Origin: Escherichia coli
GTDB lineage: Bacteria; Pseudomonadota; Gammaproteobacteria; Enterobacterales; Enterobacteriaceae
DNA length: 20,556 nucleotides
Reading direction: 5' to 3' (one strand)
NCBI GenBank assembly: GCA_022664555.1
Contig: GCA_022664555.1_4839.2
The notes below the pieces were generated by a model. It was not told the origin of the DNA. It ran no database searches and saw only the letters and a list, made by a program, of their open reading frames with translations. The translations under genes and the position numbers were made by a program. This document shows, one piece after another, positions 204 to 19,128 of the stretch (positions are counted from its first letter, which is position 1; each line of letters begins with the position of its first letter).

Positions 204-446
204 ATGAACCCAGAATTTGAAAATCTGTTCGAGCGATGCTTCGAACCAGGTTCTGTGTCCGGTTACATGGACCGCCTTTGCACTGCCATTGTAATACGCC
301 TTGCTGCCAAGGGTATCGTTGTCAACACCATTATCCGCAATGGGAACAACTTTATCATGCAGATGACTGATTATCACCACCGCACAGGCATCATCCAGGT
401 GTCATGTGTTGACAACAGCATTATTGAATGGAGACAGTACGCATGA
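204..446 (+). CDS. Hypothetical protein (80 aa)
   Basis: ATG at 204; stop TGA overlaps the next ATG (ATGA at 443-446), suggesting translational coupling. No clear SD upstream. Confidence 0.4.
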   Translation: MNPEFENLFERCFEPGSVSGYMDRLCTAIVIRLAAKGIVVNTIIRNGNNFIMQMTDYHHRTGIIQVSCVDNSIIEWRQYA

Positions 447-3501: not shown

Positions 3502-3827
3502 AAAAGCCGCGTATTACAGGACACCAACTCTTGGTTCTCTACGGGATAGAGAACTTTGAGAAAGGTCATTACCGTTATGTTGAATGGTACTTGCATCCCA
3601 TATCCTGTACCAATGAGAAGTGCTACACGGTGTGTACGTTCAAGTTATTCACGATTTCTTGTGGTTTCACCTCCGTCAAAGGCAACCCCCGCACTGGGGC
3701 TTCCCTGCTCGCCAAGGGGTTGATCGAACCAGCTGGCTCAATGGTTCATGACGGTTCTTACGTGAACTGGCCGAACGCTGAGGTGACGTTCTATCGCCTG
3801 ACCGAACTCGGTAAATCTTATCTCTGA
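3498..3827 (+). CDS. Hypothetical protein (109 aa), possibly winged-helix-like
   Basis: ATG at 3498 (AAAGGA upstream), ATGA overlap with the preceding stop. The ORF-track start at 3447 looks like an upstream extension. Confidence 0.5.
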   Translation: MKKPRITGHQLLVLYGIENFEKGHYRYVEWYLHPISCTNEKCYTVCTFKLFTISCGFTSVKGNPRTGASLLAKGLIEPAGSMVHDGSYVNWPNAEVTFYRLTELGKSYL

Positions 3828-3851
3828 ATAAAGATTCAGCGGTTATTGAAG

Positions 3852-3883
3852 AAGGGGGAGTATATACTTCCCCTTAGTTTATT
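3852..3883 (+). terminator. Rho-independent terminator
   Basis: 10-bp stem aagggggagt/acttcccctt (one G-U pair) with loop atat, followed by agTTTATT. Preceded by the 10-mer gttattgaag. Confidence 0.6.
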
Positions 3884-3897
3884 AAGAGGAACCGGAA

Positions 3898-4212
3898 ATG
3901 ACCCCATTAAAAGAAATGTATGAGCGCCTGGCTGAACTACAGGCGAAGGAAAAGCGCTTCTCAGAAGAAGAGTCTGAAATCTCCGAGCTGAACACTTTGA
4001 TCGCCACTCGCGAGAAGTACCTGCAGCGCTACATTAATCACCCACCGCGCATGGTAGACCGCGTCAGCACTATCATGGACCTGGATGAAGTTACTCCTGG
4101 CAAAGAAATCATTGTCAGGGAAGTCCATCAGATGGTCGCCATGGGTCAGATCTTTGGTCGTGCAGACCAAGACGACATGATGTTCCTCCTTGAAAAGAAA
4201 CTGGTGATGTGA
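3898..4212 (+). CDS. Hypothetical protein (104 aa)
   Basis: ATG at 3898 with AAGAGGA 7 nt upstream; stop TGA overlaps the cd start. Confidence 0.55.
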   Translation: MTPLKEMYERLAELQAKEKRFSEEESEISELNTLIATREKYLQRYINHPPRMVDRVSTIMDLDEVTPGKEIIVREVHQMVAMGQIFGRADQDDMMFLLEKKLVM

Positions 4213-4718
4213 TGGCTATCAAACCCCGTATGTTGTTTGCGCATATGCGCTCGGCTCATGCATACGCTCTGTCCAGCTATGCCCAGCGCCTGAAGGTCGG
4301 CTGTGTTATCGTTGACCCGCGTGTTGACCAGCCCCTGTCTATCGGTTGGAACGGGACTGCTCCTGGCGCTCCTAATGTCTGTGAGAAGGAAGTAGACGGT
4401 CAACTGGTATATGTGGGTGTTATCCACGCCTAGGATAATGCTCTGATCAAACTCCCCCAGCACACCGAAGACTGTTGTGGCCTGGTGATGTTTGTCACTC
4501 ATAGTCCATGCCCAGAGTGCACCCGTCGTATTATCGACAGTGGCAAGATCGCTAAAGTGTTCTATGACCGACAATATAGTATCACAGACTGTATTATTGA
4601 AATGCTGGCTGCTGGAATTGAAGTATATCGCATGGTCGATCAGGTTGTTGTAGTCCAGCATTCTGTGAAGAACGGCGAACTGGTATCCACCCCTGTTTTA
4701 GTGAACCCTGACAAATAA
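4212..4718 (+). pseudogene. cd: dCMP deaminase (cd) interrupted by an in-frame amber codon (TAG at 4431-4433) at the catalytic-Glu position
   Basis: Single 168-codon frame. N-part VGCVIVD...SIGWNGTAPG...VIHA, then TAG, then DNALIKL...THSPCPEC. This matches the deaminase zinc motifs H-A-E and PCxxC, with the stop where E is expected. ORF-track fragments are 4209..4433 and 4485..4718, in the same frame. Confidence 0.75.
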
Positions 4719-5351: not shown

Positions 5352-5962
5352 GGTAAGAGCAGTCCATCATCCCGCTCCGTTGGGGCGGGTTTAATCTCCT
5401 TCCGCATCTGTTCTTTCAAGAATCTGACACGCTCGGCATGTCGGCGATCTTGCATCTCCATATCCCGTTTCTTTTTCGACTTCAATTCGAACTGTTTACG
5501 AACATCCGGATCTTCACCTGGAACAAGATGCTCTTCGGTCCAGATAATGAACTTCCAGTTCTTCTTGGCACACAGTTCGCGGGTGGCCTCCCACTTGGCA
5601 GAATTGACCAACCAGGTTCGCATCGCATTGTTGAACGTCGACTCCTTCATGTTCGGAGTCTTCTTCGGCTGCTTGATCTGGTCTTTGGGCTTGATCTCAA
5701 TGAGGGTGACCTGTAGTTCCTCTTGCCCTTCACGGCGCGTCCAGACCTTGAGGTCCATGAAGTAACGATGGGTGCGCCCGTCTACTGGGGAAATGTAAGG
5801 GATTACGGTCTCCTCGTTTTCCCAGAAAATGATCGCAGGATTAGTATCACAAAACTTGAAAGCCACAAGTTCCAAAGAAGATCGAAATACGATTTTGTTT
5901 GGGTTGCCTTTGTACTTTTTAGGATTGACAGGAACATATTTCCCTTGAAGATATTGCGCCAT
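5348..5962 (-). CDS. Hypothetical protein with PD-(D/E)xK-like nuclease motif and lysine-rich C-terminus
   Basis: ATG at 5962 with GGAGGA upstream, overlapping the seg stop (TAATG). Motif ...PYISPVDGRTHRYFMDLKVW... (D ... D-L-K). Confidence 0.5.
   Translation of the reverse strand: MAQYLQGKYVPVNPKKYKGNPNKIVFRSSLELVAFKFCDTNPAIIFWENEETVIPYISPVDGRTHRYFMDLKVWTRREGQEELQVTLIEIKPKDQIKQPKKTPNMKESTFNNAMRTWLVNSAKWEATRELCAKKNWKFIIWTEEHLVPGEDPDVRKQFELKSKKKRDMEMQDRRHAERVRFLKEQMRKEIKPAPTERDDGLLLP
5371..5395. terminator. Possible bidirectional terminator hairpin between convergent genes
   Basis: cccgctcc-gtt-ggggcggg stem-loop followed by TTTAAT. It lies in the last codons of the minus-strand ORF, so the assignment is tentative. 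Confidence 0.3.
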
Positions 5963-6699
5963 TATGCTTTCCTCCAACCTTTATGCTGTAAATTGCGACC
6001 CTTGTTTACGTGGCCCATGGAGCCTTCGCTCAAACCGATTTCTTTACAAAATTTTGCCAGGTTGACAATTGTCACCAACTGCCCTTCTGGGTTGATGAAT
6101 TTGAATTCTCGGGAATTGGCCTCGGATATTCTCTCGCGCCCTTCTTTCGTCACAGCCCCTTTGCAATTAGAGTAATCTACCAACCCCAATTCAACAAGTC
6201 GCTTATTTGAATTTCTTATTTTGTCCCTGGTTTGCTGGTCTACAACACAACCAAATCTTGGGTTATTTTCTCCCGAACGATCTTTTCCAAACCAAAAATT
6301 TCTAGAACCGTTTAGCGCTCTTGAACGATAAATTCTTTCCAGTTCTTCTTTTGGTTTAGAGAGTAATGTGTTCAGAGCTTTGGTAGACGCCTGCTTTCTA
6401 GCCTCTGGGTCTGAATTGATGTGGTCGAAGGATCCACATCCACCCAGCGTCAAATTGTATGTATCTTCCCTTTCTATAAAATCTTTGGTTACTATTCTGG
6501 ATTCTTCTAGGTACATTTGTTCCTGAGTTTCACACTCCAATAAAATATCCTTTCTGAAGTTTTCAACTCCATGTTTCTTGATTGCTCTGGTTATCATAAC
6601 ACCAGAACCCATATAGCCATCATCCGGTTCGCCTTTGTGGGCACCAACATATATCTTACCGTTTAGAAGATTGGTTATCTGGTAGACGAAGTATCTCAT
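5962..6699 (-). CDS. GIY-YIG homing endonuclease (Seg-like)
   Basis: N-terminal YFVYQITNLLNGKIYVGA ... GYMGSG ... E ... N matches the GIY-YIG catalytic module. C-terminal half has NUMOD-like DNA-binding repeats. GC is visibly lower than in the flanks. Confidence 0.8.
   Translation of the reverse strand: MRYFVYQITNLLNGKIYVGAHKGEPDDGYMGSGVMITRAIKKHGVENFRKDILLECETQEQMYLEESRIVTKDFIEREDTYNLTLGGCGSFDHINSDPEARKQASTKALNTLLSKPKEELERIYRSRALNGSRNFWFGKDRSGENNPRFGCVVDQQTRDKIRNSNKRLVELGLVDYSNCKGAVTKEGRERISEANSREFKFINPEGQLVTIVNLAKFCKEIGLSEGSMGHVNKGRNLQHKGWRKA
5962..6699 (-). mobile_element. Free-standing homing endonuclease gene inserted between nuclease and baseplate genes
   Basis: Same ORF as the Seg-like CDS; intergenic placement and compositional difference from neighbours. 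Confidence 0.55.
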
Positions 6700-6749
6700 A
6701 ATCTAGTCCTAAATAGTCATAACACTCTATCTATTTAAGGGCTGAGACC

Positions 6750-7718
6750 ATGGCCGACTTCAAGAAGACAATCGATAAGATCAAGGTTCTGAACACCAAG
6801 GGATTGTCCCAGGCTCAGAAGCAATTGTCTTATCCCCTGGACGTCACTGGGGGTAAGACCTTAGGACACTATGTCCTATTCAACATCAACCGCATCTCCG
6901 GTTCATCTTATGGCAATACGGCTACTCAGACTATCGAGAACCCAATACAGAACCCTCTGGGGAATACTCCTGTGGTCTATGGGTCCAAGTCTGGTTCCAT
7001 CACCAAATATGCATGGGCGCGTCACGTTCGTTCAAACGAGTCCATCGTCTTGTGTATGCCAGAGTCCATTACAACCAACTATGGTGTTGGCTGGAACGGT
7101 AGTGAGCTGGGGCTGGCTGGAATGGGTGCACAGTTCCTTTCCCGCGCCGCCCAAGACATGACTCAGTTTAAACTGGGTGATGCACTCAACGTCGGGAAGG
7201 AGATGGGGCGATTCGCTGCCACCAAGGCTATCCAATCTGCATCGGAGGCTATCCCGTTCCTGCCGAGCATTAACGCCCATGACACCCTTGAGTTGTTCAC
7301 AGGCACCATGACCAACCCATATGTGGAGATGATCTTCCAGGGTGTTCGCAACCGTGAGATTCCATTTACATTCAAATTCACGCCGCGATCTCAGAAGGAA
7401 GCCAAGATGGTCCGTGAGATCATCCGCATGTTCAAGATGCATATGTACCCAGAGTACAAGTACAACAAGAATTCCAGCGCGTTTTACTTGCATCCTTCAA
7501 CATTCGACATTACGTTCATGGTCAATGGGGAGCGTAACCAGTGGCTACACCGCATCTCCACTTGTGTACTTTCCAACATGTTCGTCAACGAGACGCCGGA
7601 CAGTTCATACGCGGTTCACAAAGATGATGGTATCGTGTCCACGCAGGTTGACATGACCTTCATCGAACTGGAGCCTCTGCATAAAGGGCGCTTTGAAACC
7701 GAAGGCGATAGCTTCTAA
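6750..7718 (+). CDS. Baseplate/tail-tube junction protein with tail-tube fold (gp19-family; gp54/gp48-like by size)
   Basis: 322 aa. C-terminal REIPFTFKFTPRSQKEAKMVREIIRMFKMHMYPE resembles the conserved tube-protein motif. First gene of a + strand structural operon. Confidence 0.6.
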   Translation: MADFKKTIDKIKVLNTKGLSQAQKQLSYPLDVTGGKTLGHYVLFNINRISGSSYGNTATQTIENPIQNPLGNTPVVYGSKSGSITKYAWARHVRSNESIVLCMPESITTNYGVGWNGSELGLAGMGAQFLSRAAQDMTQFKLGDALNVGKEMGRFAATKAIQSASEAIPFLPSINAHDTLELFTGTMTNPYVEMIFQGVRNREIPFTFKFTPRSQKEAKMVREIIRMFKMHMYPEYKYNKNSSAFYLHPSTFDITFMVNGERNQWLHRISTCVLSNMFVNETPDSSYAVHKDDGIVSTQVDMTFIELEPLHKGRFETEGDSF

Positions 7719-7729
7719 GAGAGGATGCC

Positions 7730-8284
7730 ATGAAATATTTTGAGAAGTTTCCACTTGTTTGGCATCAATTGCAAGATGTCAAAGAGAATCATCAGTTGTT
7801 GTTACAGAACTTAACGCGCCGGGTGATGATCTTACAGAAAATTAAGGACATCGAAGGGCTTCTCCTGCCGTATACGATCCAAGAGGGGGAAACCCCAAGG
7901 TCTTTCGCAGAACGCGTTTACGGATCCTTCGAGTTGTTTTGGATACCTTGTCTGATAAACGGCATCATGGACATCAATAAGGACTGGCCAAAACCGGAAC
8001 GTCGTATTGTTGAAGAACTGACTGCAGACTATGGCATCGATGGTATGTGGGATACAGCCTATTATGTAGACCAGTTCAACAATGTGACCGACGCCCGTGC
8101 TATCAAATTTGCATATAACCTAGACCTGGATGAGCCGTCCATAATTGCTAACTATGGTCTGACGGCAGTTTCATATCATGATGATGCAATCAGTAAGAAT
8201 GAAGCCAAACGGAACATCCGAGTACTCGACCCAGATTATGTGTCTTCGTTTGTCAATCAGCTGGAGCAGGAGTTGGCGAAATGA
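7730..8284 (+). CDS. Small baseplate hub-associated protein (gp26/gp28/gp51-like by position)
   Basis: 184 aa; ATG at 7730 with AAGAGAGGA upstream; ATGA-coupled to the next gene. Assignment is by synteny only. Confidence 0.45.
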   Translation: MKYFEKFPLVWHQLQDVKENHQLLLQNLTRRVMILQKIKDIEGLLLPYTIQEGETPRSFAERVYGSFELFWIPCLINGIMDINKDWPKPERRIVEELTADYGIDGMWDTAYYVDQFNNVTDARAIKFAYNLDLDEPSIIANYGLTAVSYHDDAISKNEAKRNIRVLDPDYVSSFVNQLEQELAK

Positions 8285-9669
8285 TCGAAAACAGAGAGAC
8301 CCAAGACGGTATTGTAACACCGTCAACAACATTTGACCTGAAGTATATGGCGATCCTCCCTCATACACCCCAGGGTGGAACACCAACGCCATATGATCTG
8401 ACGGCGTTGTTTGAGGAGTTCAACGTCTTCCAGGATCTGGGTCTTGAAGGGAAGTCATCTCCATCACTTACAGCCAATGTCTTGATAAAAGAAGTGTGTG
8501 ACATTCTTGACACAATGCCTATCTTGGGTGGTGAAGAAGTTGTGGTGTCATTCAAGAGTCCGGCGGCCTCGGAATACCCCACTCTCTCCCTGCGCGTAGC
8601 GCGTGTTGGGCGCGTAGCTGATGAGTCCAACAGCTCGTCCAAGAAAGCATTCTGGTTGCACATGGTGACCACCGATGCCTATAAGGACAGCATGATCCGA
8701 TGCTCCCTCGGTCTTGACGGTTCGTATTCTGACATGGCGAAGGCAATCTTCAATCAGTTGGAGTCGCGCACCAAGTTCGAAGACATCGACCCGTCGTATG
8801 GAATTCAAGAGCGGTTCGCCACCCCGCTCTGGCCTGTGCTGCGATCTATTGATTATATGGCGAGCCGTTCTTATGACGAATTGTTCATGCCATTCGTGTT
8901 CTATGAAGACTTCAATGGCTATCACTTCAAGAGCCTGACGACGTTGTTCAACCAGGGTAGCCAGTCATTGACAGCAGAAGAGAAGCAGGAACTAGCTCAG
9001 CAGAACAAGTTGTTCCGTGATCCTCAGGACGCGCCGCTCATGCAGGATAACAACTTCAACTCTGAGCGCTTTATGCGCACGATCATCAAGGCAGAGAAGA
9101 AGCTGGCGCGTGACCAGTTCATGGCAAACTACCGCGATGTCCTGGCGGTGAACGAGCGCGTCTACGACTTTGAGACCAAGACAGTCACCCCAACACAGCG
9201 CATCTATACTGAGTGGTTTGCAGAGACGGCTCACCTTGATCCGTTCCCGATGTTCTCAGATGAATTCAATCGTCAGAACGTCCGTTACATTGAAGCCCAG
9301 CCGGATGGAGCGGAGCAGATTGATTATGCTCGTCGTGTTATCAACTTCAGTCTTGCCAGCACTGTGATGCGCGTGTTGCTCGTTGGTGATAACCGCCTGA
9401 ACGTCGGTCAGGTGTTCTACGTCGAAGACCAGTCCAACCGTCCTAAGAAGAACGAAAACCTGGCAGAGTTAAGTAAGCTATCGACAGGCCACTATATCGT
9501 GACCAAAGTGCGTCACAAGATTTCCCGCCTAACCAAAGATTATCAGTGCATCGCTGAGATTGCCAAGGACAGTTTGCTGGAGCAGGTGCTTCCACCTCAG
9601 ACCAATCAGACAACTGCTTCCACCACTACTCCTCAGGCGATTGAGAAAGGCCAAGCACAGAAGGTTTAA
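8281..9669 (+). CDS. Baseplate hub subunit, gp27-like (tentative)
   Basis: 462 aa. Segments PLWPVLRSIDYMASRSYDELFMPFVFYEDFNGYHFKSLTTLFNQ and GDNRLNVGQVFYVEDQSN resemble remembered gp27 hub motifs. Immediately upstream of the tape-measure gene. Confidence 0.55.
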   Translation: MIENRETQDGIVTPSTTFDLKYMAILPHTPQGGTPTPYDLTALFEEFNVFQDLGLEGKSSPSLTANVLIKEVCDILDTMPILGGEEVVVSFKSPAASEYPTLSLRVARVGRVADESNSSSKKAFWLHMVTTDAYKDSMIRCSLGLDGSYSDMAKAIFNQLESRTKFEDIDPSYGIQERFATPLWPVLRSIDYMASRSYDELFMPFVFYEDFNGYHFKSLTTLFNQGSQSLTAEEKQELAQQNKLFRDPQDAPLMQDNNFNSERFMRTIIKAEKKLARDQFMANYRDVLAVNERVYDFETKTVTPTQRIYTEWFAETAHLDPFPMFSDEFNRQNVRYIEAQPDGAEQIDYARRVINFSLASTVMRVLLVGDNRLNVGQVFYVEDQSNRPKKNENLAELSKLSTGHYIVTKVRHKISRLTKDYQCIAEIAKDSLLEQVLPPQTNQTTASTTTPQAIEKGQAQKV

Positions 9670-9680
9670 CGAGGTGACCC

Positions 9681-11627
9681 ATGGCACAGGAAGCAACGAA
9701 CAATGATGTTGTCAAAGTTCTAGACAAGATCAAGGCGGAGATGATGCAGCGCAAACAACTCCGCGCTCAGAATGAAACCAACAAACAGCTTGACCGGATG
9801 AACAAGAATCTGGCCAAGCTGGAATCTGCCACTAAACAGGGCACCAAGGCCGAGTCCAAGCCATTTGAAATCCGTATCCCGACAGTCAATGAGATCGTCA
9901 TGGGATTCGCTCGCATGTCTCCGATCTTCACCCGCGACTTCAGCGTATGGATGAAGGATACTGTCGATGTGGGTAACGAAGGTAATCGGGAACTGGAGAA
10001 TATCGCAGGCAAGATTGACCGCCTCGGTGAGATCACCCGCATGCCAACAGATGACACGTCCCTGGAGTATCTTAACCTGATCTCAGACCAGCTGAAGTCT
10101 GCCAATGATGACACCCTCAAGCGCATGGACGAGCAGAGTGTGTCTCTGGTCCGCGTGGGATCATTCTTGAACATGATCGACGGAGTGATGATCGAGGTTC
10201 GTGACAATGTTGCTGAACTGAAAAAGAACTCCGATGACACCCTTACTCGCTTGTCTAGCATTGAAAACAAGATTGGACGCACGGGCGGTCATATCGTTGG
10301 AGTGTTGACACGCATCTTTGATGAAGACCAGAAGTGGCGTGAGAAGGACGAGATGCGCCGTGGGGAAACAGACAAAGAAACGGGTGGTCATCCTCAGGCG
10401 GGTTCTGTTATACCCAAAGACGATGACCAGAAAGACGATTCCTCCGGTATCGGGGCTGCTGTGGCGGCCATGCTTGGCCTGAATGCACTGAAGGGCTTCT
10501 TGCTCAAGCCGTTCAAGATCATCGGTGGTGTTGTCGGGACTTTCCTCGGCATGTTCTCCAAGCTGGGAGAAGGTATCACCAAACTTCTGGGTCCATTTGG
10601 GAAGGTGTTCAAGTTCCTGAAAGTCGGCCCACTGGCTCTCCTGTCTATGATCTGGGACTTCGGTAAAGGCTTCATTGATGCGAAGGAGATCCTAGGTAAA
10701 GGTGCTGTCACGATAGTTGACCGAGTACGGGCGGGGATATCAGAACTGGTTGGTGGATTTGGTGATCTATTTGACTGGGTGTCCAAGATCTTTGGCTTTG
10801 ATACCGAGGCGGGTGAAACCCTGCGCAAATACACCCTCATGATCACAGAGGCTCCCGCTCGTTGGCTGAATGGTATTATCGACTGGATTAGCAACGACTT
10901 GTTTGCAGGGATCGGGAGAGACACGTCTCTTACGGATATCCCTGGCAAGTTAGCAGACAACCTACAGTCCGAGTTGATAAAGCTGGTAGACTGGATCACA
11001 GGGGGTATCAGTAGTGTGATCGACGAGGGCATGGGTGTGGCCAACAAGGTCATTGACGATATCAAGAAGGGATTTGCCGAAAATGTGAAGAAACCTTTCT
11101 TCAACATGCTGAACACAATCACCAATGCGATGTTCGATATCGTTGACAAGTTCGTCAGCATCATCCCTGACGCTCTGGGTGGACAGGCTGCGAAGCAGAA
11201 GATGGATGAGGCTCGCCAGTCTATGCTGATTGACACTGATGAGAATCCATCTCCTAATGTGACAGAGACCCAGCAGCCACAGACGCCAGCACAACCGAAC
11301 ATCGATCCACAAACGCTGACTCCAATACCTTCTGGTGCGTCTTCGGATGACAAGAATATGACTAATGACCGCACCTCTCAGCTGAAAGCTGCGTATGGTT
11401 CTATCGGGGGTGGTACTCTGGGCGGGGCCATGCCATCACAAGGGAGGGCGCTGTCTAATATTGAGCAAGTACAAGGCGGCTATTCACCGCCTCCGGCCAG
11501 CGTCGTGATGCCAGTACAGCAGAATGTGGATGCTTCTAAGAGGATCAACACGACCAATAACTTCAACAGCTCATATCTTGAGCCTGAGAACAAAACAGAT
11601 AATTCCCGCATCCTGTGGGAATGGTAA
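9681..11627 (+). CDS. Tail tape measure / baseplate hub protein, gp29-like
   Basis: 648 aa. N-terminal coiled-coil-like region, a long Gly-rich hydrophobic segment (GIGAAVAAMLGLNALKGFLLKPFKIIGGVVGTFLGMF...) and a Ser/Pro-rich C-terminus. ATG at 9681 with GAGGTGA upstream. Confidence 0.6.
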   Translation: MAQEATNNDVVKVLDKIKAEMMQRKQLRAQNETNKQLDRMNKNLAKLESATKQGTKAESKPFEIRIPTVNEIVMGFARMSPIFTRDFSVWMKDTVDVGNEGNRELENIAGKIDRLGEITRMPTDDTSLEYLNLISDQLKSANDDTLKRMDEQSVSLVRVGSFLNMIDGVMIEVRDNVAELKKNSDDTLTRLSSIENKIGRTGGHIVGVLTRIFDEDQKWREKDEMRRGETDKETGGHPQAGSVIPKDDDQKDDSSGIGAAVAAMLGLNALKGFLLKPFKIIGGVVGTFLGMFSKLGEGITKLLGPFGKVFKFLKVGPLALLSMIWDFGKGFIDAKEILGKGAVTIVDRVRAGISELVGGFGDLFDWVSKIFGFDTEAGETLRKYTLMITEAPARWLNGIIDWISNDLFAGIGRDTSLTDIPGKLADNLQSELIKLVDWITGGISSVIDEGMGVANKVIDDIKKGFAENVKKPFFNMLNTITNAMFDIVDKFVSIIPDALGGQAAKQKMDEARQSMLIDTDENPSPNVTETQQPQTPAQPNIDPQTLTPIPSGASSDDKNMTNDRTSQLKAAYGSIGGGTLGGAMPSQGRALSNIEQVQGGYSPPPASVVMPVQQNVDASKRINTTNNFNSSYLEPENKTDNSRILWEW

Positions 11628-14532: not shown

Positions 14533-14874
14533 TTATTTCTTCGGGGGTTCAATTGAGGTGAAAGAATCCTTCCAACTCTTGAATTTTTCAACCAGGGCTT
14601 CTTTACCCAGCTTGTCATTTGACACGCTGTGAATATAGGCAAATGCTCCATAGCCGGATCCTGGCATAGCCTTGCAGATGCGCAGACTGACCAAAGAATC
14701 TCCTACGGAAACAAGATAGTGGTCACGACGATTGTTCGGGGCATAATGGTTGTCGTGAAACTTGTCAATAACAACACAGTTCTGAGGTTCGACGTCAATC
14801 GGTAGCCCGTTGGCTTCGGATCCGCCGCGCCCAAGTACGCAGCCTGGGAATAATGTTTCTAAGAGTGTAGTCAT
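14533..14874 (-). CDS. Hypothetical protein (113 aa)
   Basis: ATG at 14874 with AAGGA 7 nt upstream; preceded by a ~250-nt non-coding region. Confidence 0.55.
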   Translation of the reverse strand: MTTLLETLFPGCVLGRGGSEANGLPIDVEPQNCVVIDKFHDNHYAPNNRRDHYLVSVGDSLVSLRICKAMPGSGYGAFAYIHSVSNDKLGKEALVEKFKSWKDSFTSIEPPKK

Positions 14875-15127
14875 GGACTGTTCCTTCTTTAAGTTCCCAA
14901 GAATTAAATGGGTGAATAGTTTATTGAATTATTTGTTGTGAAACCCAGAGCCTTGTGGACTTCTTCACGATTTTAATTTCGGCCTGAGCCTCTGTGCGAT
15001 TAATCTAGCGCTTGTGATGTCGGGAGAGGGCTTTGTAAACAAGCCTTGGCGTCAATGGCATCGATTAGACAACGGATCTCAGCGCATCAGAGGCTTGCCC
15101 AACAGCCAGTTGAAATACTTGCGCATG

Positions 15128-15540: not shown

Positions 15541-15657
15541 TCATTTCTTCCTCTTAAAGGGGACGACCAGGGCTATGATGAGAAGCATAGCTGTAATCAT
15601 CCCACATGCTATCAGACCGAAGGCGAACGACTTCAGAACAAACTCAATCAAATTCAT
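15541..15657 (-). CDS. Very small hydrophobic membrane peptide (38 aa)
   Basis: Hand-translated: MNLIEFVLKSFAFGLIACGMITAMLLIIALVVPFKRKK. ATG overlaps the stop of the 368-aa gene (ATGA). Below the ORF-track size cutoff. Confidence 0.35.
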   Translation of the reverse strand: MNLIEFVLKSFAFGLIACGMITAMLLIIALVVPFKRKK

Positions 15658-16760
15658 AATTTCCTCAATTTGGCTCTGGTGACCTGAGTTTGTTTAACGC
15701 CGTTGTACTCAGTCAGTTCTTTGACACGACCACGGATGATCATATCGCCCTGCAAGAACTCTGTATCCATATAAGAGGTCTTCCAGGTAATTGTATTGCC
15801 TTCTGCTGTTTTGAAAGTAAACAGGTAGCTATCACCATATTCATTGGAGAAGAGGAAGGTGCGCTTGTCGAACCTGACTTGCACTTCCAGCATTTCACCG
15901 ACTTCACCCACCCATTTGTTCTCCGCCTTGCGGTCAGTACGAGGACGATGGATGTAATCGTAATACTTCTTGGCACCCCAGCGGACTGTGTTGTTATCCT
16001 TGATGAGGTGATAGCCGGGTTCACACATGCGTTTCAGGCGAACATTGAACTCATTAGATTCGGACAGCGCACTGATGAAGAGCTTCATATGGTACATTTC
16101 CGACTCGGCATCTTCACGGTATTCGTGTGCCTTGTTTACGAAATACTCTTCATCGGAACCTGCTTTTGGTTTCTGGTGAGACCGGACATAGCCCAGGACT
16201 TTGTCAAACAGTTCAGACTTGATATCCACGCCTGCCAACATCACCTGGAAGCATGCGCGCAGGAAACTGTGGGTGTCGACGAAGCGCTCATTTTGGACGC
16301 GATATATACCCTCTGGGTCGTCCTCGTCTGGCATGAAGAACTCTTGGATTTCCAGATAGTAAGACATAATCGCGTCAAGCGATTTCTGATGAGGTACATA
16401 ATGATGCATACAGGTGCTACCAATCAGCATCTGGGTGTGCGTTTCCTCATTTTCAATCACATACGTGTTCTTGCGACGGATGACTAGATTGCAATGCTGA
16501 CACCAAGAGACGTTCTCTGTCTCGAAGCGACGGATGAAGTCAGGATTGATGTTGTCAGACAGGCGGTTAAGAATAACTTTTGGATATTCGTGATTGAACT
16601 GACCGATGATTTTCCAGCCACCATAAGAGACGGGGCGGTCAATGCCTTCGCCTTCGAGAGTAACAGGTTTCCACCAGTGAGTAAGGATCTCACCAGTGAA
16701 GTCGCGGGTGTGGGTTTTGAAGGGTTCACCATAAGTCACAGTCGGAAACGGAACACCCAA
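15654..16760 (-). CDS. Hypothetical protein (up to 368 aa) with Cys/His cluster and OB-fold-like C-terminus; start codon uncertain
   Basis: Long ORF with no ATG in the first ~117 codons (the track start is TTG at 16760). Cluster WCQHCN...STCMHHY. C-terminal beta-rich segment VGEVGEMLEVQVRFDKRTFLF...ITWKTS. Confidence 0.55.
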   Translation of the reverse strand: MGVPFPTVTYGEPFKTHTRDFTGEILTHWWKPVTLEGEGIDRPVSYGGWKIIGQFNHEYPKVILNRLSDNINPDFIRRFETENVSWCQHCNLVIRRKNTYVIENEETHTQMLIGSTCMHHYVPHQKSLDAIMSYYLEIQEFFMPDEDDPEGIYRVQNERFVDTHSFLRACFQVMLAGVDIKSELFDKVLGYVRSHQKPKAGSDEEYFVNKAHEYREDAESEMYHMKLFISALSESNEFNVRLKRMCEPGYHLIKDNNTVRWGAKKYYDYIHRPRTDRKAENKWVGEVGEMLEVQVRFDKRTFLFSNEYGDSYLFTFKTAEGNTITWKTSYMDTEFLQGDMIIRGRVKELTEYNGVKQTQVTRAKLRKL

Positions 16761-16900
16761 CCTTTCGGCAGTGCGCTAGAGCTTCTTCAGTCTCTAAACT
16801 ACAAAAAATTCATTGTATAACGGAATATTGAAAGTTTTTAAGTTCATTTCCAGACTCATGATGTAGTTGTAACTCTTCAATACAGATTAAATATTAGGCG

Positions 16901-16928
16901 ATTATTTCTTGAAAGTAAAGTTATTGAA
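16901..16928 (-). promoter_or_regulatory. Candidate sigma70-like promoter for the 368-aa gene operon
   Basis: Minus strand: TTCAAT (16923-16928), 16-nt spacer, AATAAT (16901-16906); immediately downstream of the terminator hairpin. Confidence 0.3.
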
Positions 16929-16933
16929 GTTAA

Positions 16934-16956
16934 AAGCCCAGTACTTGACTGGGCTT
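16934..16956 (-). terminator. Rho-independent terminator after the 104-aa gene
   Basis: 9-bp stem aagcccagt / actgggctt with loop acttg. On the minus strand it is followed by TTTTAACTTC. Lies 18 nt downstream of the stop codon at 16974-16976. Confidence 0.55.
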
Positions 16957-16973: not shown

Positions 16974-17288
16974 TTATTCGCCACTGACATTCGGGTCTCG
17001 ATCGGGCTTGGCGTTCGGGAATAGAGACTCGTATAGGTCTTGATATTTCTCGCTCGTTTCGATCGTCTTATGGTAAGTTCCATTGGCGCGGTCGGATACA
17101 ACCTTGCGCAGGTCGCTGGCCTTGATGCCCGTCTCTTTCGCCAGCTCGGCCAGAGTCTCAGTAATGAAAGTCTGTTCCGACTTGATGCGGACCTGGGCGG
17201 CACGACAGTTTTCAATTGCACCTATCAGCTTGCGACGGGATTCAGGATCAGATGGTAGTACATAAAAGCCGATTTGTTCTACAGACAT
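16974..17288 (-). CDS. Hypothetical protein (104 aa)
   Basis: ATG at 17288 with AAGAGGAA upstream. Confidence 0.55.
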   Translation of the reverse strand: MSVEQIGFYVLPSDPESRRKLIGAIENCRAAQVRIKSEQTFITETLAELAKETGIKASDLRKVVSDRANGTYHKTIETSEKYQDLYESLFPNAKPDRDPNVSGE

Positions 17289-17303: not shown

Positions 17304-17639
17304 TTAAGATCTCATAGCTTGTGGGATCAGATTAGTCCCGCAACGGCGTAAAAAGAAGTTTACGATTGAGTGATACTGGAACTTCGGGATGATCTCTACA
17401 CCATCTTCCGTCGTATACCATTCCACTGTGTTGGTGCGCACTGGAAGGGGAAATGACGGTAGATCCAGCTGTACGAGTTCACCCTCTTGGCATATCATAC
17501 CAATTCCATATTCCTCCCAGATTTTACGATTGTTGAAGAACTCCAGAGTCTGCTCCGGACTCAGCTCAATCGCTTGTTTGGTGTGGCACACCTGTTTGGC
17601 GGCCTGCACCAGGCCAGCCATAAAATCATTGTGTGACAT
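17304..17639 (-). CDS. Hypothetical protein (111 aa)
   Basis: ATG at 17639 with AGGAG 6 nt upstream; candidate promoter just upstream. Confidence 0.55.
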   Translation of the reverse strand: MSHNDFMAGLVQAAKQVCHTKQAIELSPEQTLEFFNNRKIWEEYGIGMICQEGELVQLDLPSFPLPVRTNTVEWYTTEDGVEIIPKFQYHSIVNFFLRRCGTNLIPQAMRS

Positions 17640-17671
17640 GATGTGCTCCTGGTTTATATTCAGATCATAGA

Positions 17672-17699
17672 ATTATACCCTATGACCCGCTTTATTGAA
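17672..17699 (-). promoter_or_regulatory. Candidate sigma70-like promoter downstream of gene 41
   Basis: Minus strand: TTCAAT (17694-17699), 16-nt spacer, TATAAT (17672-17677); about 30 nt upstream of the AGGAG/ATG of the 111-aa gene. Confidence 0.35.
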
Positions 17700-17703
17700 T
17701 TAC

Positions 17704-19128
17704 CTAGAATTTCCAATTATTGACCGTTTGGGCTTTCTGCTCATCGCTGGCAGCAGCCCCGGACTTGTTGAGGTCATGTTTGATGTGTACGTTTTCGACA
17801 TATTTGGCCTCAGCCTCAGTCAGGTCCTTCTTAACTTCGTTCCAGTCCAGGTCAAACAGGATCTGTTTGTCTTGGTCCATACCAAACAGGAATGATTTCA
17901 GCTTCTGCTTGTTGGCATAACGGTTCTTGAGTATTGAGGCTCGGGCTTTCTTGACCGCCGCCAGTTCGTCAGGAGCATAGAATGCCATGATGAAGTCGGC
18001 CACCTTCGGAATACCGATAGCATCTGCCAGATCACTGATTCCACCATCAGTGCTATTCTGATTCTCACGATTGAACTGCATACCAGTCCATACAGGGACA
18101 TCAAACTCAAATCCCAGCGCACGAAACTCACGAGCCACAGACGTGTAATAGACGTTCGTGTTCTGCATCAGGTGGGAAGGCAGGCGCGAGGAAGCAGCTT
18201 CACCAAGATAGTCAATAACGATAACATCAGGAGCACGACCGGTCGCCTGGATGTACTCAAGGATGTCACGGCGGAATAAACCTGTGTGTCCAGCGCCGGA
18301 CGGATATTCCTTGATGACGATATCGCCCTTGGGTGCGCCATCTTGGCGACTGCGGAGCTTCTCTATCGTTGCAATATACTCGTGCCTTGTGAGTTTCTCT
18401 AAAGACTCAAAGTCGCGACGCATGATACGGGCATCAAGACGGTGTCGCCAGACGTTCTCGGCCACTTCGAGGGTGAAGACAAAGACGTTCAGCCCCTGCT
18501 CCGAGTACCCTGCGGTCAGGTCAATCAGCGTTGTGGTCTTACCTGCGTTGATCGCACCTGTTACGATGTTCAGTGTCTTCTTACCAACGCCACCACGTGT
18601 CGCCTTATTGAAGATCTCAACTGCGAACGGGATCTTGGCCTCGTTGGAGTTCATGTGGTCATACTGCTCTGCCGCCATCTCCCAATAGATGTGACCGAGG
18701 TATGAATCAAATCGGATCGCCAGGGCTTCCTGCAACAGGGTCGGGATGTTGTTCATCTCGTCCTTGCGCTTCTCGTCACCGTAGATGTTGACGGCGGTCT
18801 TGATTGCGTTGTGTACAGCCTTTTGCCGCGCCCAAGCCTCGGTTTCCTTCGCCAGCCACTCTTCATTGAAGGTGTTGTCGTTGATGTTCTCTAGGGCAGA
18901 TACCGCCTGGTCAAACACATATTCGTTCAGCTTTGTCCGTTCAAGAATGATAGACAGTGCTTCGATAGACGGGCGGGCATTATACTCTGAGGCATAACTG
19001 TCAATCAGGCCAAAGATGACCTTTTCGCCTTCGTTGTCAAAATAATCGGCTTTCAGGTACGGCAGGATCTTTCTTTGATAATCTTCATTGTAAATCAACT
19101 GTGAAAGCACGACAGATTCGAGTAACAT
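17704..19128 (-). CDS. 41: Replicative DNA helicase, DnaB-like (T4 gp41-like)
   Basis: Walker A GAINAGKTTTL, Walker B-like VIVIDYLGEA, DnaB-type N-terminal domain. First ATG at 19128 (the track start at 19134 is TTG). Stop is TAG. Confidence 0.9.
   Translation of the reverse strand: MLLESVVLSQLIYNEDYQRKILPYLKADYFDNEGEKVIFGLIDSYASEYNARPSIEALSIILERTKLNEYVFDQAVSALENINDNTFNEEWLAKETEAWARQKAVHNAIKTAVNIYGDEKRKDEMNNIPTLLQEALAIRFDSYLGHIYWEMAAEQYDHMNSNEAKIPFAVEIFNKATRGGVGKKTLNIVTGAINAGKTTTLIDLTAGYSEQGLNVFVFTLEVAENVWRHRLDARIMRRDFESLEKLTRHEYIATIEKLRSRQDGAPKGDIVIKEYPSGAGHTGLFRRDILEYIQATGRAPDVIVIDYLGEAASSRLPSHLMQNTNVYYTSVAREFRALGFEFDVPVWTGMQFNRENQNSTDGGISDLADAIGIPKVADFIMAFYAPDELAAVKKARASILKNRYANKQKLKSFLFGMDQDKQILFDLDWNEVKKDLTEAEAKYVENVHIKHDLNKSGAAASDEQKAQTVNNWKF

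What the first reader, a model, noticed from the sequence alone, without database searches (positions are those of the whole stretch)
17672..17702. Recurrent TTTATTGAATTA / TTATTGAA motif at candidate promoters
The 12-mer tttattgaatta occurs at 14920-14931 and 17691-17702, both in gaps upstream of minus-strand genes. On the minus strand it supplies a TTCAAT -35-like hexamer spaced 16 nt from TATAAT (17672-17677) or from the weak TAATTC (14901-14906). The 8-mer ttattgaa also occurs at 422, 3843, 4595 and 16921 on the + strand, and I did not see its reverse complement on the + strand in my by-eye scan. This could be a phage-specific promoter or regulator-binding element.
Basis: seen in the sequence. 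Interest (0 to 1): 0.45.

Follow-up and report, generated by a model that had tools for sequence, protein, structure and literature searches.

The report
Known ViI-like phage promoter box TTCAATAA
The repeated TTATTGAA motif (TTCAATAA on the gene strand) is a real, conserved promoter box of ViI-like (Ackermannviridae) phages upstream of their non-structural genes. It has already been published as TTCAAT[N14]TATAAT, so the finding is correct but not new.

Summary
TTTATTGAATTA is at 14920-14931 and 17691-17702. TTATTGAA occurs 7 times, all on the + strand (421, 3843, 4594, 14921, 16921, 17692, 18605), against about 0.6 expected.

The window is an Agtrevirus-like Ackermannviridae phage. In the closest complete genome, TTCAATAA is the most enriched 8-mer upstream of genes: 24 of 31 copies lie in the 7.7% of the genome that is intergenic, and 20 of those point toward the downstream gene. 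None precedes a virion gene. TTCAAT-to-TAnnnT spacing peaks sharply at 14 nt.

The copy after the gp41 helicase gene (17692-17699) is exact in 20 of 22 relatives, with an invariant TATAAT. The intragenic copy in gp41 is just Phe-Asn-Lys codons and is not conserved.

This matches the published ViI-like phage motif TTCAAT[N14]TATAAT. It most likely marks pre-late promoters that use a sigma-70-type -10. The box sits about 3 bp too close to be a normal -35, the geometry of a T4 MotA box, yet no MotA or AsiA homologue was found. Many sites nest the -10 in a stem-loop, like PeSL cassettes.

No transcription start sites are available. Verdict: real, already known, low-to-moderate interest.

The parts
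17692..17699 (-). It starts 5 nt after the gp41 helicase stop codon (TAG, 17704-17706).
   Evidence: The box is exact in 20 of 22 Ackermannviridae loci at the orthologous position; L007 has TTCAATAC and L025 has ATCAATAA.
17672..17677 (-). Site A -10 hexamer TATAAT, 16 nt downstream of TTCAAT.
   Evidence: GTATAAT is invariant in all 15 aligned sequences. The spacing at this one orthologous site is 16, 15 or 14 nt in different genera.
17663..17687 (-). Inverted repeat that encloses the site A -10. The arms are GGTCATAG (17680-17687) and CTATGATC (17663-17670).
   Evidence: 87% of cells pair, against 29-45% when the partner is slid. Three pairs show changes on both sides. RNA fold is -15.8 kcal/mol, z = -2.7.
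17637..17650 (-). Shine-Dalgarno AGGAG (17646-17650) and the ATG (17637-17639) of the first gene served by site A. That gene is a 111-aa protein of unknown function (phrog_3733). A 104-aa predicted transcriptional regulator follows at 16974-17288.
   Evidence: The leader is conserved across genera.
14921..14928 (-). Site B box TTCAATAA (12-mer 14920-14931), upstream of the 113-aa gene 14533-14874. The DNA ligase gene lies beyond it.
   Evidence: The orthologous sites in fGh-Ecl02 (128574) and L009 read TTCAAT-N14-TATAAT.
14903..14908 (-). Site B -10-like hexamer TTTAAT, 14 nt from TTCAAT. It is TATAAT in relatives and was degraded here by substitutions private to this window.
16921..16928 (-). 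Site C box TTCAATAA. It follows a terminator hairpin directly and abuts a -35-like TTTACT.
   Evidence: The box is present at the orthologous position in 18 of the 19 loci where the downstream gene was found. It is absent in L023, where that gene match is weak, and duplicated in tandem in some Kuttervirus-like loci.
16891..16919 (-). Site C core promoter: TTTACT (16914-16919), a 17-nt spacer holding a degenerate second box TTCAAGAA (16906-16913), then TAATAT (16891-16896).
   Evidence: Read from the sequence. It aligns with TTTACT-N17-TATCAT in Kuttervirus-like loci and with TATTAT in L007, L008 and L024.
16930..16956 (-). Terminator-like hairpin (stem AAGCCCAGT / ACTGGGCTT) followed by a run of T, just upstream of the site C box.
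   Evidence: One search found the stem on the + strand. It is conserved across genera.
3843..3850 (-). Site D box. It is intergenic but points away from the flanking + strand genes.
   Evidence: It is conserved in Ag3 and fGh-Ecl02.
3852..3875 (+). Site D hairpin AAGGGG...CCCCTT with TATACT (3863-3868) in its loop. TATACT lies 12 nt from the box and 30 nt before the ATG at 3898. This is a probable promoter with the box in reverse orientation.
   Evidence: Read from the sequence. The architecture is the same as at the fGh-Ecl02 sites.
18605..18612 (-). Intragenic copy inside gp41 (codons Phe-Asn-Lys). Not part of the element.
   Evidence: The peptide FAVEIFNKATR is invariant, but the Asn codon is AAC in 19 of the 20 loci recovered. 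Only the window and L006 have AAT.
421..428 (-). Intragenic copy, antisense to the + strand gene that ends at 446. Probably chance.
   Evidence: Intragenic copies in the whole fGh-Ecl02 genome (7) are close to the roughly 5 I estimate from base composition.
4594..4601 (-). Intragenic copy, antisense within the dCMP deaminase gene. Probably chance.
   Evidence: It is absent from fGh-Ecl02, which reads ATTATTGAC at this place.

Best explanation
TTCAATAA, read on the strand of the downstream gene, is the conserved upstream box of the promoters that Ackermannviridae (ViI-like) phages use for their non-structural, pre-late genes. Host RNA polymerase with sigma-70 reads the -10 hexamer (TATAAT or TATTAT).

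In the commonest arrangement the box lies 12 nt upstream of the -10 (TTCAAT-N14-TATAAT). That puts it at about -32 to -25, where it takes the place of a -35 hexamer. At 17672-17702 the spacing is 16 nt. That promoter serves a two-gene unit just after the gp41 helicase gene.

Many of these promoters are built into a stem-loop that encloses the -10. One short cassette then ends the upstream transcript and starts the next one.

Shown: enrichment, orientation, preferred spacing, conservation at orthologous sites, and the hairpins. Inferred: that transcription starts there, that sigma-70 holoenzyme is used, and the early or middle timing. I also infer that the box is more likely read by a phage factor, or by a remodelled sigma, than by sigma-70 region 4 alone. 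The reasons are that the modal spacing is 3 bp shorter than the sigma-70 optimum, all eight bases are kept, and the box also occurs reversed or at other distances in promoters that have their own TTTACT -35.
For: - Identity of the window: an Agtrevirus-like Ackermannviridae phage, 96.8% identical to fGh-Ecl02 and 92% to Ag3.
- Enrichment in fGh-Ecl02: of 31 TTCAATAA copies, 24 are intergenic although only 7.7% of the genome is intergenic. Twenty of these point toward the downstream gene.
- Unbiased k-mer test: TTCAATAA is the top 8-mer in upstream regions, binomial p = 1e-21. Next comes CTAAATAC, which lies 27-85 nt upstream of the next gene at 11 of 12 copies, mostly virion structural genes.
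- Downstream genes: the 20 sense-oriented sites precede small hypothetical genes, a tRNA gene, an HU-like gene and nucleotide-metabolism genes. None precedes a virion gene.
- Spacing: TTCAAT-N-TAnnnT peaks at N14, with 13 hits of which 11 are intergenic. N16 to N18 give 2, 3 and 2 hits, only one of them intergenic.
- Conservation: site A has the exact box in 20 of 22 loci and an invariant GTATAAT, while the flanks diverge. Site C has the box in 18 of the 19 loci where its downstream gene was found.
- Control: the intragenic copy in gp41 is not conserved at the synonymous position.
- Hairpins: 10 of 20 sites are followed at once by a significant hairpin, usually enclosing the -10. At site A the helix shows covariation.
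- Literature: TTCAAT[N14]TATAAT and CTAAATAcCcc are reported as the two regulatory motifs in Agtrevirus phage EspM4VN.
Against: - No transcription start site or expression data exist for any of these sites, and none was found in the literature searched.
- TTCAAT matches only 3 of 6 positions of TTGACA. A generic sigma-70 scan misses all the sites.
- The distance from box to -10 varies from 6 to 14 nt among sites, and from 12 to 14 nt at the single orthologous site A. This does not fit a rigid core-promoter element.
- Two fGh-Ecl02 copies (61026, 94916) are followed by a hairpin and have no -10 in range.
- Four intergenic copies in that genome are reversed.
- In this window the site B -10 is TTTAAT and lacks the key A at position 2.
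Confidence: 0.7

Rival explanations
1. Plain host promoter. TTCAAT is simply a weak -35 hexamer read directly by sigma-70 region 4 with no phage factor, and the sites are immediate-early promoters.
For: Site A has an allowed 16-nt spacer and a perfect TATAAT. Kutter et al. note that many early promoters must exist in these phages and were not found with the TTGACA consensus. No activator candidate was identified.
Against: The modal spacing is 14 nt, and the sigma-70 range of 16-18 nt is almost empty. The two A's after the hexamer are as conserved as the hexamer itself. The box also occurs inside the spacer of, or upstream of, separate TTTACT-N16/17 promoters, and in reverse orientation.
Confidence: 0.3
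2. Operator. TTCAATAA is the binding site of a phage-encoded (or host) DNA-binding protein that represses or times these promoters. It is not part of RNA polymerase recognition.
For: The position relative to the -10 is variable, and both orientations occur. Inverted pairs TTATTGAA-N13-TTCAATAA flank TTTACT in fGh-Ecl02 at 15966/15987 and 101251/101272. The eight bases are strictly conserved. The phage encodes a weakly DsbA-like regulator (Pfam match below threshold) and an HU-like protein.
Against: A sharp spacing peak at N14 is more typical of a polymerase-linked element. In the N14 class no other -35-like element is present. No binding protein has been identified.
Confidence: 0.2
3. RNA-level signal. 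UUCAAUAA in read-through transcripts marks a processing, stability or termination site next to the hairpins, and the -10-like hexamers are incidental AT-rich loops.
For: The orientation bias is explained equally well. Ten of 20 sites are followed at once by a hairpin, some with a run of U. Two copies have a hairpin but no -10.
Against: GTATAAT is invariant at site A, whose hairpin has no run of U. Sites without any hairpin still have a -10 at 13-14 nt, for example upstream of tRNA-Asn and at 72812. Reversed copies sit in promoter contexts. No Rfam family matches.
Confidence: 0.08
4. Chance or base composition. An AT-rich 8-mer recurs in AT-rich gaps without any function.
For: Within the window alone, the count of 7 is matched by some 8-mer in 11 of 300 simulations. 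The 12-mer repeat is not unusual. Three of the seven copies are intragenic and look accidental.
Against: The genome-wide enrichment has p = 1e-21 with a 20:4 orientation bias. There is a spacing peak. The box is exactly conserved at orthologous sites while the neighbouring bases diverge.
Confidence: 0.02

Closest known systems
The conserved 'Viunalikevirus' / Ackermannviridae regulatory motif TTCAAT[N14]TATAAT. It is reported for Agtrevirus phage EspM4VN in PMC7283392. From memory, it was first described by Adriaenssens et al. 2012, Arch Virol, a paper not held in the library.
   Same: Same hexamer, same -10, same phage family, and the same companion motif CTAAATAcCcc. Site B has the N14 spacing, and the genome-wide spacing peak is at N14.
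   Different: The conserved unit is the 8-mer TTCAATAA. Some copies lie in or upstream of TTTACT-type promoters, or are reversed. The published motif is also only an in-silico prediction.
T4 middle promoters, which work by MotA/AsiA sigma appropriation (Hinton 2010, PMC2988021).
   Same: Both have a sigma-70-type -10 plus a phage-specific box that replaces the -35. The box lies 12 +/- 1 bp upstream of the -10, which is the modal geometry here. Both serve pre-replicative genes.
   Different: The box sequence differs: TTCAATAA against (a/t)(a/t)(a/t)TGCTTtA. No MotA or AsiA homologue was found in the closest complete genome, and Kutter et al. report none in ViI-like phages. The spacing here is looser.
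PeSL (promoter-early stem-loop) cassettes of T4-like phages (Arbiol 2010, PMC2839356; Comeau 2014, PMC4122927).
   Same: Both are short intergenic cassettes that combine a promoter with a stem-loop lying between the -35 and -10 or overlapping the -10. Stems are often runs of G and C. Site B is present in some relatives and absent in others, as expected of a shuffled cassette.
   Different: PeSL promoters match the E. coli TTGACA/TATAAT consensus, while these carry TTCAATAA. Terminator activity, recombination and mini-circles were not tested here.
T4 early promoters. Their -35 consensus GTTTAC is quoted from memory and was not verified here.
   Same: A subset of sites has TTTACT-N16/17-TATACT or TATCAT, a sigma-70-like geometry.
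   Different: The TTCAATAA box in or next to these promoters has no T4 counterpart that I know of.

Membership tests
Ackermannviridae TTCAAT[N14]TATAAT regulatory motif | The genome belongs to the ViI-like phages (Ackermannviridae). | tested here: met
   96.8% identity to fGh-Ecl02 and 92% to Shigella phage Ag3 (Agtrevirus) over 90-95% of the window.
Ackermannviridae TTCAAT[N14]TATAAT regulatory motif | A TTCAAT hexamer in an intergenic gap, oriented toward the downstream gene. | tested here: met
   Sites at 17694-17699, 14923-14928 and 16923-16928 on the minus strand, each upstream of a minus-strand gene.
Ackermannviridae TTCAAT[N14]TATAAT regulatory motif | A 14-nt spacer. | tested here: inconclusive
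   Site B has 14 nt. Site A has 16 nt (15 or 14 in other genera). Site C has 26 nt to TAATAT, with a degenerate second box in between. The genome-wide mode is 14.
Ackermannviridae TTCAAT[N14]TATAAT regulatory motif | A TATAAT -10 hexamer. | tested here: met
   Site A has a perfect TATAAT that is invariant across genera. Site B has TTTAAT, which is TATAAT in relatives. Site C has TAATAT.
Ackermannviridae TTCAAT[N14]TATAAT regulatory motif | Co-occurrence with the second family motif, CTAAATAcCcc, upstream of late genes. | tested here: met
   CTAAATA at 6709-6715, 35 nt before the gp48 baseplate gene. In fGh-Ecl02, 11 of 12 CTAAATAC copies lie 27-85 nt upstream of the next gene, mostly virion structural genes.
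Canonical sigma-70 promoter | A -35 hexamer matching TTGACA in at least 4 of 6 positions, a 16-18 nt spacer, and a -10 TATAAT. | tested here: not met
   TTCAAT matches 3 of 6. The generic scan finds none of the sites and finds no excess over shuffles. The modal spacer is 14 nt. Only the -10, and the 16-nt spacer of site A, fit.
Canonical sigma-70 promoter | A mapped transcription start 5-9 nt downstream of the -10. | not testable with these tools
   No transcriptome or 5'-end data for Ackermannviridae were found.
T4 middle promoter (MotA/AsiA-dependent) | An excellent sigma-70 -10 with a phage box 12 +/- 1 bp upstream. | tested here: met
   The modal class is TTCAATAA-N12-TATAAT/TATTAT. Site A itself has 14 bp.
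T4 middle promoter (MotA/AsiA-dependent) | The MotA box sequence (a/t)(a/t)(a/t)TGCTTtA. | tested here: not met
   The box is TTCAATAA.
T4 middle promoter (MotA/AsiA-dependent) | The phage encodes MotA and AsiA. | tested here: not met
   tblastn and phmmer with T4 MotA and AsiA against the fGh-Ecl02 genome and proteome gave a best E-value of 0.04, inside the topoisomerase gene, which is noise. Kutter et al. report none. Structural analogues cannot be excluded.
PeSL composite promoter/terminator cassette | A stem-loop placed between the -35 and -10, or overlapping the -10, of an intergenic promoter. | tested here: met
   Site A helix. Ten of 20 fGh-Ecl02 sites have z below -1.5. Site D hairpin.
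PeSL composite promoter/terminator cassette | [quoted passage not shown] | tested here: not met
   The upstream element is TTCAATAA or TTTACT, not TTGACA.
PeSL composite promoter/terminator cassette | Terminator activity and recombination between cassettes (gene shuffling, mini-circles). | not testable with these tools
   There is only an indirect hint. The site B cassette, with about 250 nt of non-coding DNA, is present in the window, fGh-Ecl02 and L009. It is absent in the other loci that carry the 113-aa gene. In the Kuttervirus-like ones the 70-aa gene runs directly into the 113-aa gene.

The most novel reading that the evidence does not exclude
TTCAATAA is the DNA target of a still unidentified phage protein that redirects sigma-70 RNA polymerase to box-N12-(-10) promoters. 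This would be a functional analogue of T4 MotA/AsiA sigma appropriation in a family that has no MotA or AsiA homologue. The promoter/stem-loop cassettes that carry the box would also move between genomes as PeSL elements do.
Probability: 0.25. Interest if true: 0.6.

Novelty: already known. Interest (0 to 1): 0.25.

Why it matters
How ViI-like phages control early and middle transcription is still unknown experimentally. Kutter et al. (2011) could not find their early promoters and noted the absence of MotA, AsiA, Alt and ModA.

The box gives about 20 concrete sites per genome. One of them, after gp41, is conserved across genera with small natural changes in spacing. That makes it a ready test case for start-site mapping, in vitro transcription and pull-down of a binding factor.

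These phages are used for biocontrol and as reporter phages, so well-defined promoters have practical value.

The motif itself is already published, so this finding adds detail rather than discovery. The added details are the 8-mer core, the spacing profile, the hairpin nesting and the reversed copies.

Tried and rejected
- Pattern scan of IMG/VR with TTCAATAA-N12-TATAAT.
- Generic sigma-70 and terminator scan. It found none of the sites and no excess over shuffles.
- Rfam. No family matched.
- Literature searches for Ackermannviridae transcriptomes or start-site maps. None was found. The original Arch Virol paper is not held in the library.
- Candidate trans-acting factors.
  - T4 MotA and AsiA have no homologue.
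  - The two genes downstream of site A gave no PDB sequence match. One has only a sub-threshold Pfam DsbA match plus phrog_639 'transcriptional regulator'.
  - The 672-aa protein annotated by similarity as 'putative RNA polymerase' in a relative has no Pfam or functional PHROG match. A phage RNA polymerase as reader of the box is therefore unsupported.
- My crude ORF-based gene caller recovered only 149 of 196 annotated stops. I relied on the annotated genome for the statistics instead.
- Considered from memory only and rejected on sequence: an IHF site and a sigma-32 or sigma-28 promoter. The box does not fit those consensus sequences.

Full report
**1. What the window is**

The window is 96.8% identical to Enterobacter phage fGh-Ecl02 and to several E. 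coli phages (AV101, A221, ZQ1). It is about 92% identical to Shigella phage Ag3. Ag3 is an Agtrevirus of the family Ackermannviridae, the former 'ViI-like' or Viunalikevirus phages.

The gene layout follows Ag3:
- Plus-strand early-type genes up to about 5350 (DexA, phosphatase, dCMP deaminase).
- Head completion gp4, on the minus strand.
- Baseplate and tail genes at 6750-11627, on the plus strand.
- A minus-strand block from 11628 to the end: helicase loader, DNA ligase, small genes, gp41 helicase and UvsX.

**2. Check of the observation**

The 12-mer TTTATTGAATTA is exactly at 14920-14931 and 17691-17702. On the minus strand the second copy reads TAATTCAATAAA. TTCAAT occupies 17699..17694, 16 nt follow, and TATAAT occupies 17677..17672.

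TTATTGAA occurs seven times on the + strand and never on the - strand. The copies start at 421, 3843, 4594, 14921, 16921, 17692 and 18605.

Shuffles give 0.64 copies on average, and none of 100 reaches seven. Allowing for post-hoc choice of the word weakens this. TTATTGAA is the commonest 8-mer on the + strand, yet some 8-mer reaches seven copies in 11 of 300 Markov simulations. A repeated 12-mer is not unusual either. The window alone is therefore only suggestive.

**3. Genome-wide test in the closest complete genome**

I fetched all of fGh-Ecl02 (153,282 bp, 196 annotated features). On the gene strand the motif reads TTCAATAA.

- It occurs 31 times. Of these, 24 are intergenic, although only 7.7% of the genome is intergenic, and 20 of the 24 point toward the downstream gene.
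- The seven intragenic copies are close to the roughly five I estimate from base composition.
- In an unbiased comparison of all 8-mers in upstream regions against the whole genome, TTCAATAA ranks first (20 of 31 copies, binomial p = 1e-21). CTAAATAC ranks second.
- CTAAATAC lies 27-85 nt upstream of the next gene at 11 of its 12 copies. Most of these are virion structural genes such as baseplate wedge, tail spikes, neck and scaffold.
- The 20 TTCAATAA sites precede small hypothetical genes, tRNA-Asn, an HU-like gene, a deoxyribonucleotidase and the thymidylate-synthesis cluster. None precedes a virion gene.

The two motifs therefore mark different gene classes, as expected for pre-late and late promoters.

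**4. Link to a -10 element**

Counting TTCAAT-N-TAnnnT at every spacing from 6 to 23 gives a sharp peak at 14 nt. There are 13 hits at that spacing, and 11 of them are intergenic. The usual sigma-70 range of 16-18 nt gives 2, 3 and 2 hits, only one of them intergenic.

The -10 hexamers in the N14 class are TATAAT, TATTAT or TATATT. A generic TTGACA/TATAAT scan of the window's minus-strand block finds none of the sites and finds no more hits than shuffles do.

**5. Conservation at orthologous sites**

Using gp41 as an anchor, I collected 22 Ackermannviridae loci whose gp41 is 70-99% identical to the window's.

*Site A (after gp41).*
- The box starts a few bases after the gp41 stop codon in every locus. 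It is exact in 20 of 22; the other two differ by one base.
- In a 15-sequence alignment the invariant blocks are TCAATA and GTATAAT, while the bases between and around them vary.
- The TTCAAT-to-TATAAT distance at this single orthologous site is 16 nt in the window and in Kuttervirus-like loci. It is 15 nt in Taipeivirus-like loci and L026, and 14 nt in L023.

*Site C (16921).*
- The box follows a conserved terminator hairpin in 18 of the 19 loci where the downstream gene was found. L023 lacks it, and its gene match is weak.
- In some Kuttervirus-like loci the unit CTTTAC-TTCAATAA-AA is duplicated in tandem, which gives TTTACT-N17-TATCAT.
- In the window the proximal copy has decayed to TTCAAGAA. 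The core reads TTTACT (16914-16919), 17 nt, then TAATAT (16891-16896).

*Site B (14920).* Only fGh-Ecl02 and L009 share it, and both read TTCAAT-N14-TATAAT. In the window the same register reads TTTAAT (14903-14908).

*Control.* The intragenic copy at 18605 encodes Phe-Asn-Lys within the invariant peptide FAVEIFNKATR. The Asn codon is AAC in 19 of the 20 loci recovered, and only the window and L006 have AAT. That copy is not under selection as a motif.

**6. Architecture around the box**

At site A an inverted repeat (17680-17687 with 17663-17670) encloses the -10. Across genera 87% of cells pair, against 29-45% when the partner is slid. Three pairs change on both sides, for example TCATAG/CTATGA, TCGTAG/CTACGA and TCATGA/TCATGA. 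The RNA fold has z = -2.7. Covariation of this kind fits either a nucleic-acid hairpin or a palindromic protein site, and I cannot tell which.

In fGh-Ecl02, 10 of the 20 sites are followed at once by a hairpin with z below -1.5. The hairpin is often G/C-rich, sometimes followed by a run of T, and usually carries the -10 in its loop.

This is the layout described for PeSL promoter/terminator cassettes of T4-like phages. There the stem-loop is most often between the -35 and -10 or overlaps the -10.

The box is not always at one distance.
- A second group of sites has its own -35-like TTTACT, 16-17 nt from TATACT, TATCAT or TATTAT. The box then lies in the spacer or just upstream.
- Reversed copies lie 4-6 nt upstream of TTTACT, at fGh-Ecl02 15966, 81822 and 101251.
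- The window's 3843 copy is reversed too. It lies 12 nt upstream of TATACT (3863-3868), which sits in the loop of hairpin 3852-3875, 30 nt before the ATG at 3898.

So four of the seven copies in the window (3843, 14921, 16921, 17692) are in promoter-like contexts and three are inside genes. The all-on-one-strand pattern is partly accidental.

**7. How it most likely works**

The evidence above shows a cis element tied to the promoters of non-structural genes. The -10 hexamers point to sigma-70 holoenzyme.

With the box 12 nt from the -10, it covers about -32 to -25, roughly 3 bp closer than a -35 hexamer. This is the geometry of T4 middle promoters. There a MotA box lies 12 +/- 1 bp from the -10 and replaces the -35.

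The sequence is different, however. I found no MotA or AsiA homologue in fGh-Ecl02 by tblastn or phmmer; the best E-value was 0.04 and is noise. Kutter et al. also report none in ViI-like phages.

My best reading is therefore a family-specific upstream box of pre-late promoters. It is probably read with the help of an unidentified phage factor, and it is packaged with stem-loops.

The rivals are:
- a plain weak -35 read by sigma-70 alone;
- an operator for a regulator, which the variable position, both orientations and inverted pairs would fit;
- an RNA-level signal;
- chance, which is excluded.

No start-site or expression data exist to decide among the first three.

**8. Comparison with what is known, and novelty**

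[quoted passage not shown] From memory, these motifs were defined by Adriaenssens et al. 2012 (Arch Virol) as a hallmark of the proposed genus Viunalikevirus. That paper is not in the library.

This analysis adds:
- the conserved unit is the 8-mer;
- the spacing profile;
- the natural 14-16 nt variation at one orthologous site;
- the hairpin nesting;
- the reversed and upstream copies.

None of it is experimental.

**9. Verdict**

The feature is real, correctly interpreted in outline, and already known. Interest is 0.25. The most novel reading that remains open is a MotA-like appropriation system without MotA or AsiA, working on mobile promoter cassettes. I give it a probability of about 0.25.

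**10. Seen in passing**

Relative to both fGh-Ecl02 and Ag3, the window has 283 private substitutions. They are biased from G/C to A/T (168 against 73).

Short patches consist almost entirely of changes to T (and some to A) on the sense strand. They lie at 3580-3695, 4411-4447, 4573-4592, 14862-14907 and 16778-16854.

These patches have three visible effects:
- They create a stop codon in dCMP deaminase, at 4431-4433, in place of the Glu of VIHAEEN. From memory, that Glu is the catalytic residue of the deaminase HAE motif.
- They create two TAG codons in gene 15654-16847.
- They turn the site B -10 from TATAAT into TTTAAT.

No phage record matches the tested patch at 16750-16870 at better than 88.4%; nine relatives all tie at that value. 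The 4380-4620 stretch peaks at 95.4%. I cannot say whether the patches are real or sequencing artefacts.

Two further points:
- A GIY-YIG homing endonuclease gene (5962-6699) is inserted between gp4 and gp48.
- A late-promoter-like CTAAATA sits at 6709-6715.

Noticed in passing
window 16776-16796 (minus strand), in gene 15654-16847: Two in-frame TAG codons (16794-16796 and 16776-16778) replace Glu codons near the start of a 397-aa conserved gene (phrog_2319). The window reads VV*RLKKL*RT where fGh-Ecl02, Ag3 and L024 read VVERLKKLERT. The gene is left with a 368-aa ORF that starts at a TTG.
   Followed up: partly
window 4431-4433 (+), dCMP deaminase gene 4212-4718: An in-frame stop codon replaces a Glu: the window reads VIHA*DNAL where relatives read VIHAEENAL. 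From memory, this is the catalytic Glu of the deaminase HAE motif. The gene looks inactivated in this genome.
   Followed up: partly
window 3580-3695, 4411-4447, 4573-4592, 14862-14907, 16778-16854: These are patches of substitutions private to the window, judged against both fGh-Ecl02 and Ag3. Almost all are changes to T (some to A) on the sense strand. Private changes overall are biased from G/C to A/T, 168 against 73. No phage record matches the tested 16750-16870 patch at better than 88.4%, and the 4380-4620 stretch peaks at 95.4%. The cause is unknown: a real mutational process or a sequencing or assembly artefact.
   Followed up: partly
window 6709-6715 (+): CTAAATA lies 35 nt upstream of the gp48 baseplate gene (6750). 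It matches the second published ViI-like phage motif, CTAAATAcCcc. In fGh-Ecl02, CTAAATAC lies 27-85 nt upstream of the next gene at 11 of 12 copies, mostly virion structural genes. It is probably the late promoter.
   Followed up: partly
window 5962-6699 (-): This 245-aa ORF has SegE-like GIY-YIG and NUMOD3 matches, so it is a homing endonuclease. It is inserted between gp4 and gp48 where Ag3 and fGh-Ecl02 have no gene, and it sits in a dip of G+C (0.43-0.45).
   Followed up: partly
window 14932-15127: About 200 nt without any ORF of 30 codons or more on the gene strand lie upstream of site B. In the Kuttervirus-like loci that carry the 113-aa gene, other than L009, the 70-aa gene runs directly into that gene. 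The promoter cassette and this spacer therefore look like a lineage-specific insertion, shared with fGh-Ecl02 and L009.
   Followed up: partly
L009, L011, L022 around 12200 (orthologues of window 16900-16930): There is a tandem duplication of the unit CTTTAC-TTCAATAA-AA upstream of TATCAT. In the window the copy nearer the gene has decayed to TTCAAGAA.
   Followed up: partly
fGh-Ecl02 record coordinates 15966/15987 and 101251/101272 (L002, L004): Inverted pairs TTATTGAA-N13-TTCAATAA flank a TTTACT hexamer. The two half-sites are 21 bp apart, which could suit a dimeric binding protein.
   Followed up: no
window 16974-17288 (-): The second gene of the site A unit encodes a 104-aa protein. It matches phrog_639 'transcriptional regulator' (E = 4e-31). 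It also has a sub-threshold Pfam match to T4 DsbA, a double-stranded DNA-binding protein (E = 0.07). No PDB sequence match was found.
   Followed up: partly
fGh-Ecl02 72906-74924 (L003:22906-24924): This 672-aa protein is annotated by similarity as a 'putative DNA-directed RNA polymerase'. It has no Pfam match, and its only PHROG matches are families of unknown function. It lies directly downstream of a TTCAAT-N14-TATATT site.
   Followed up: partly
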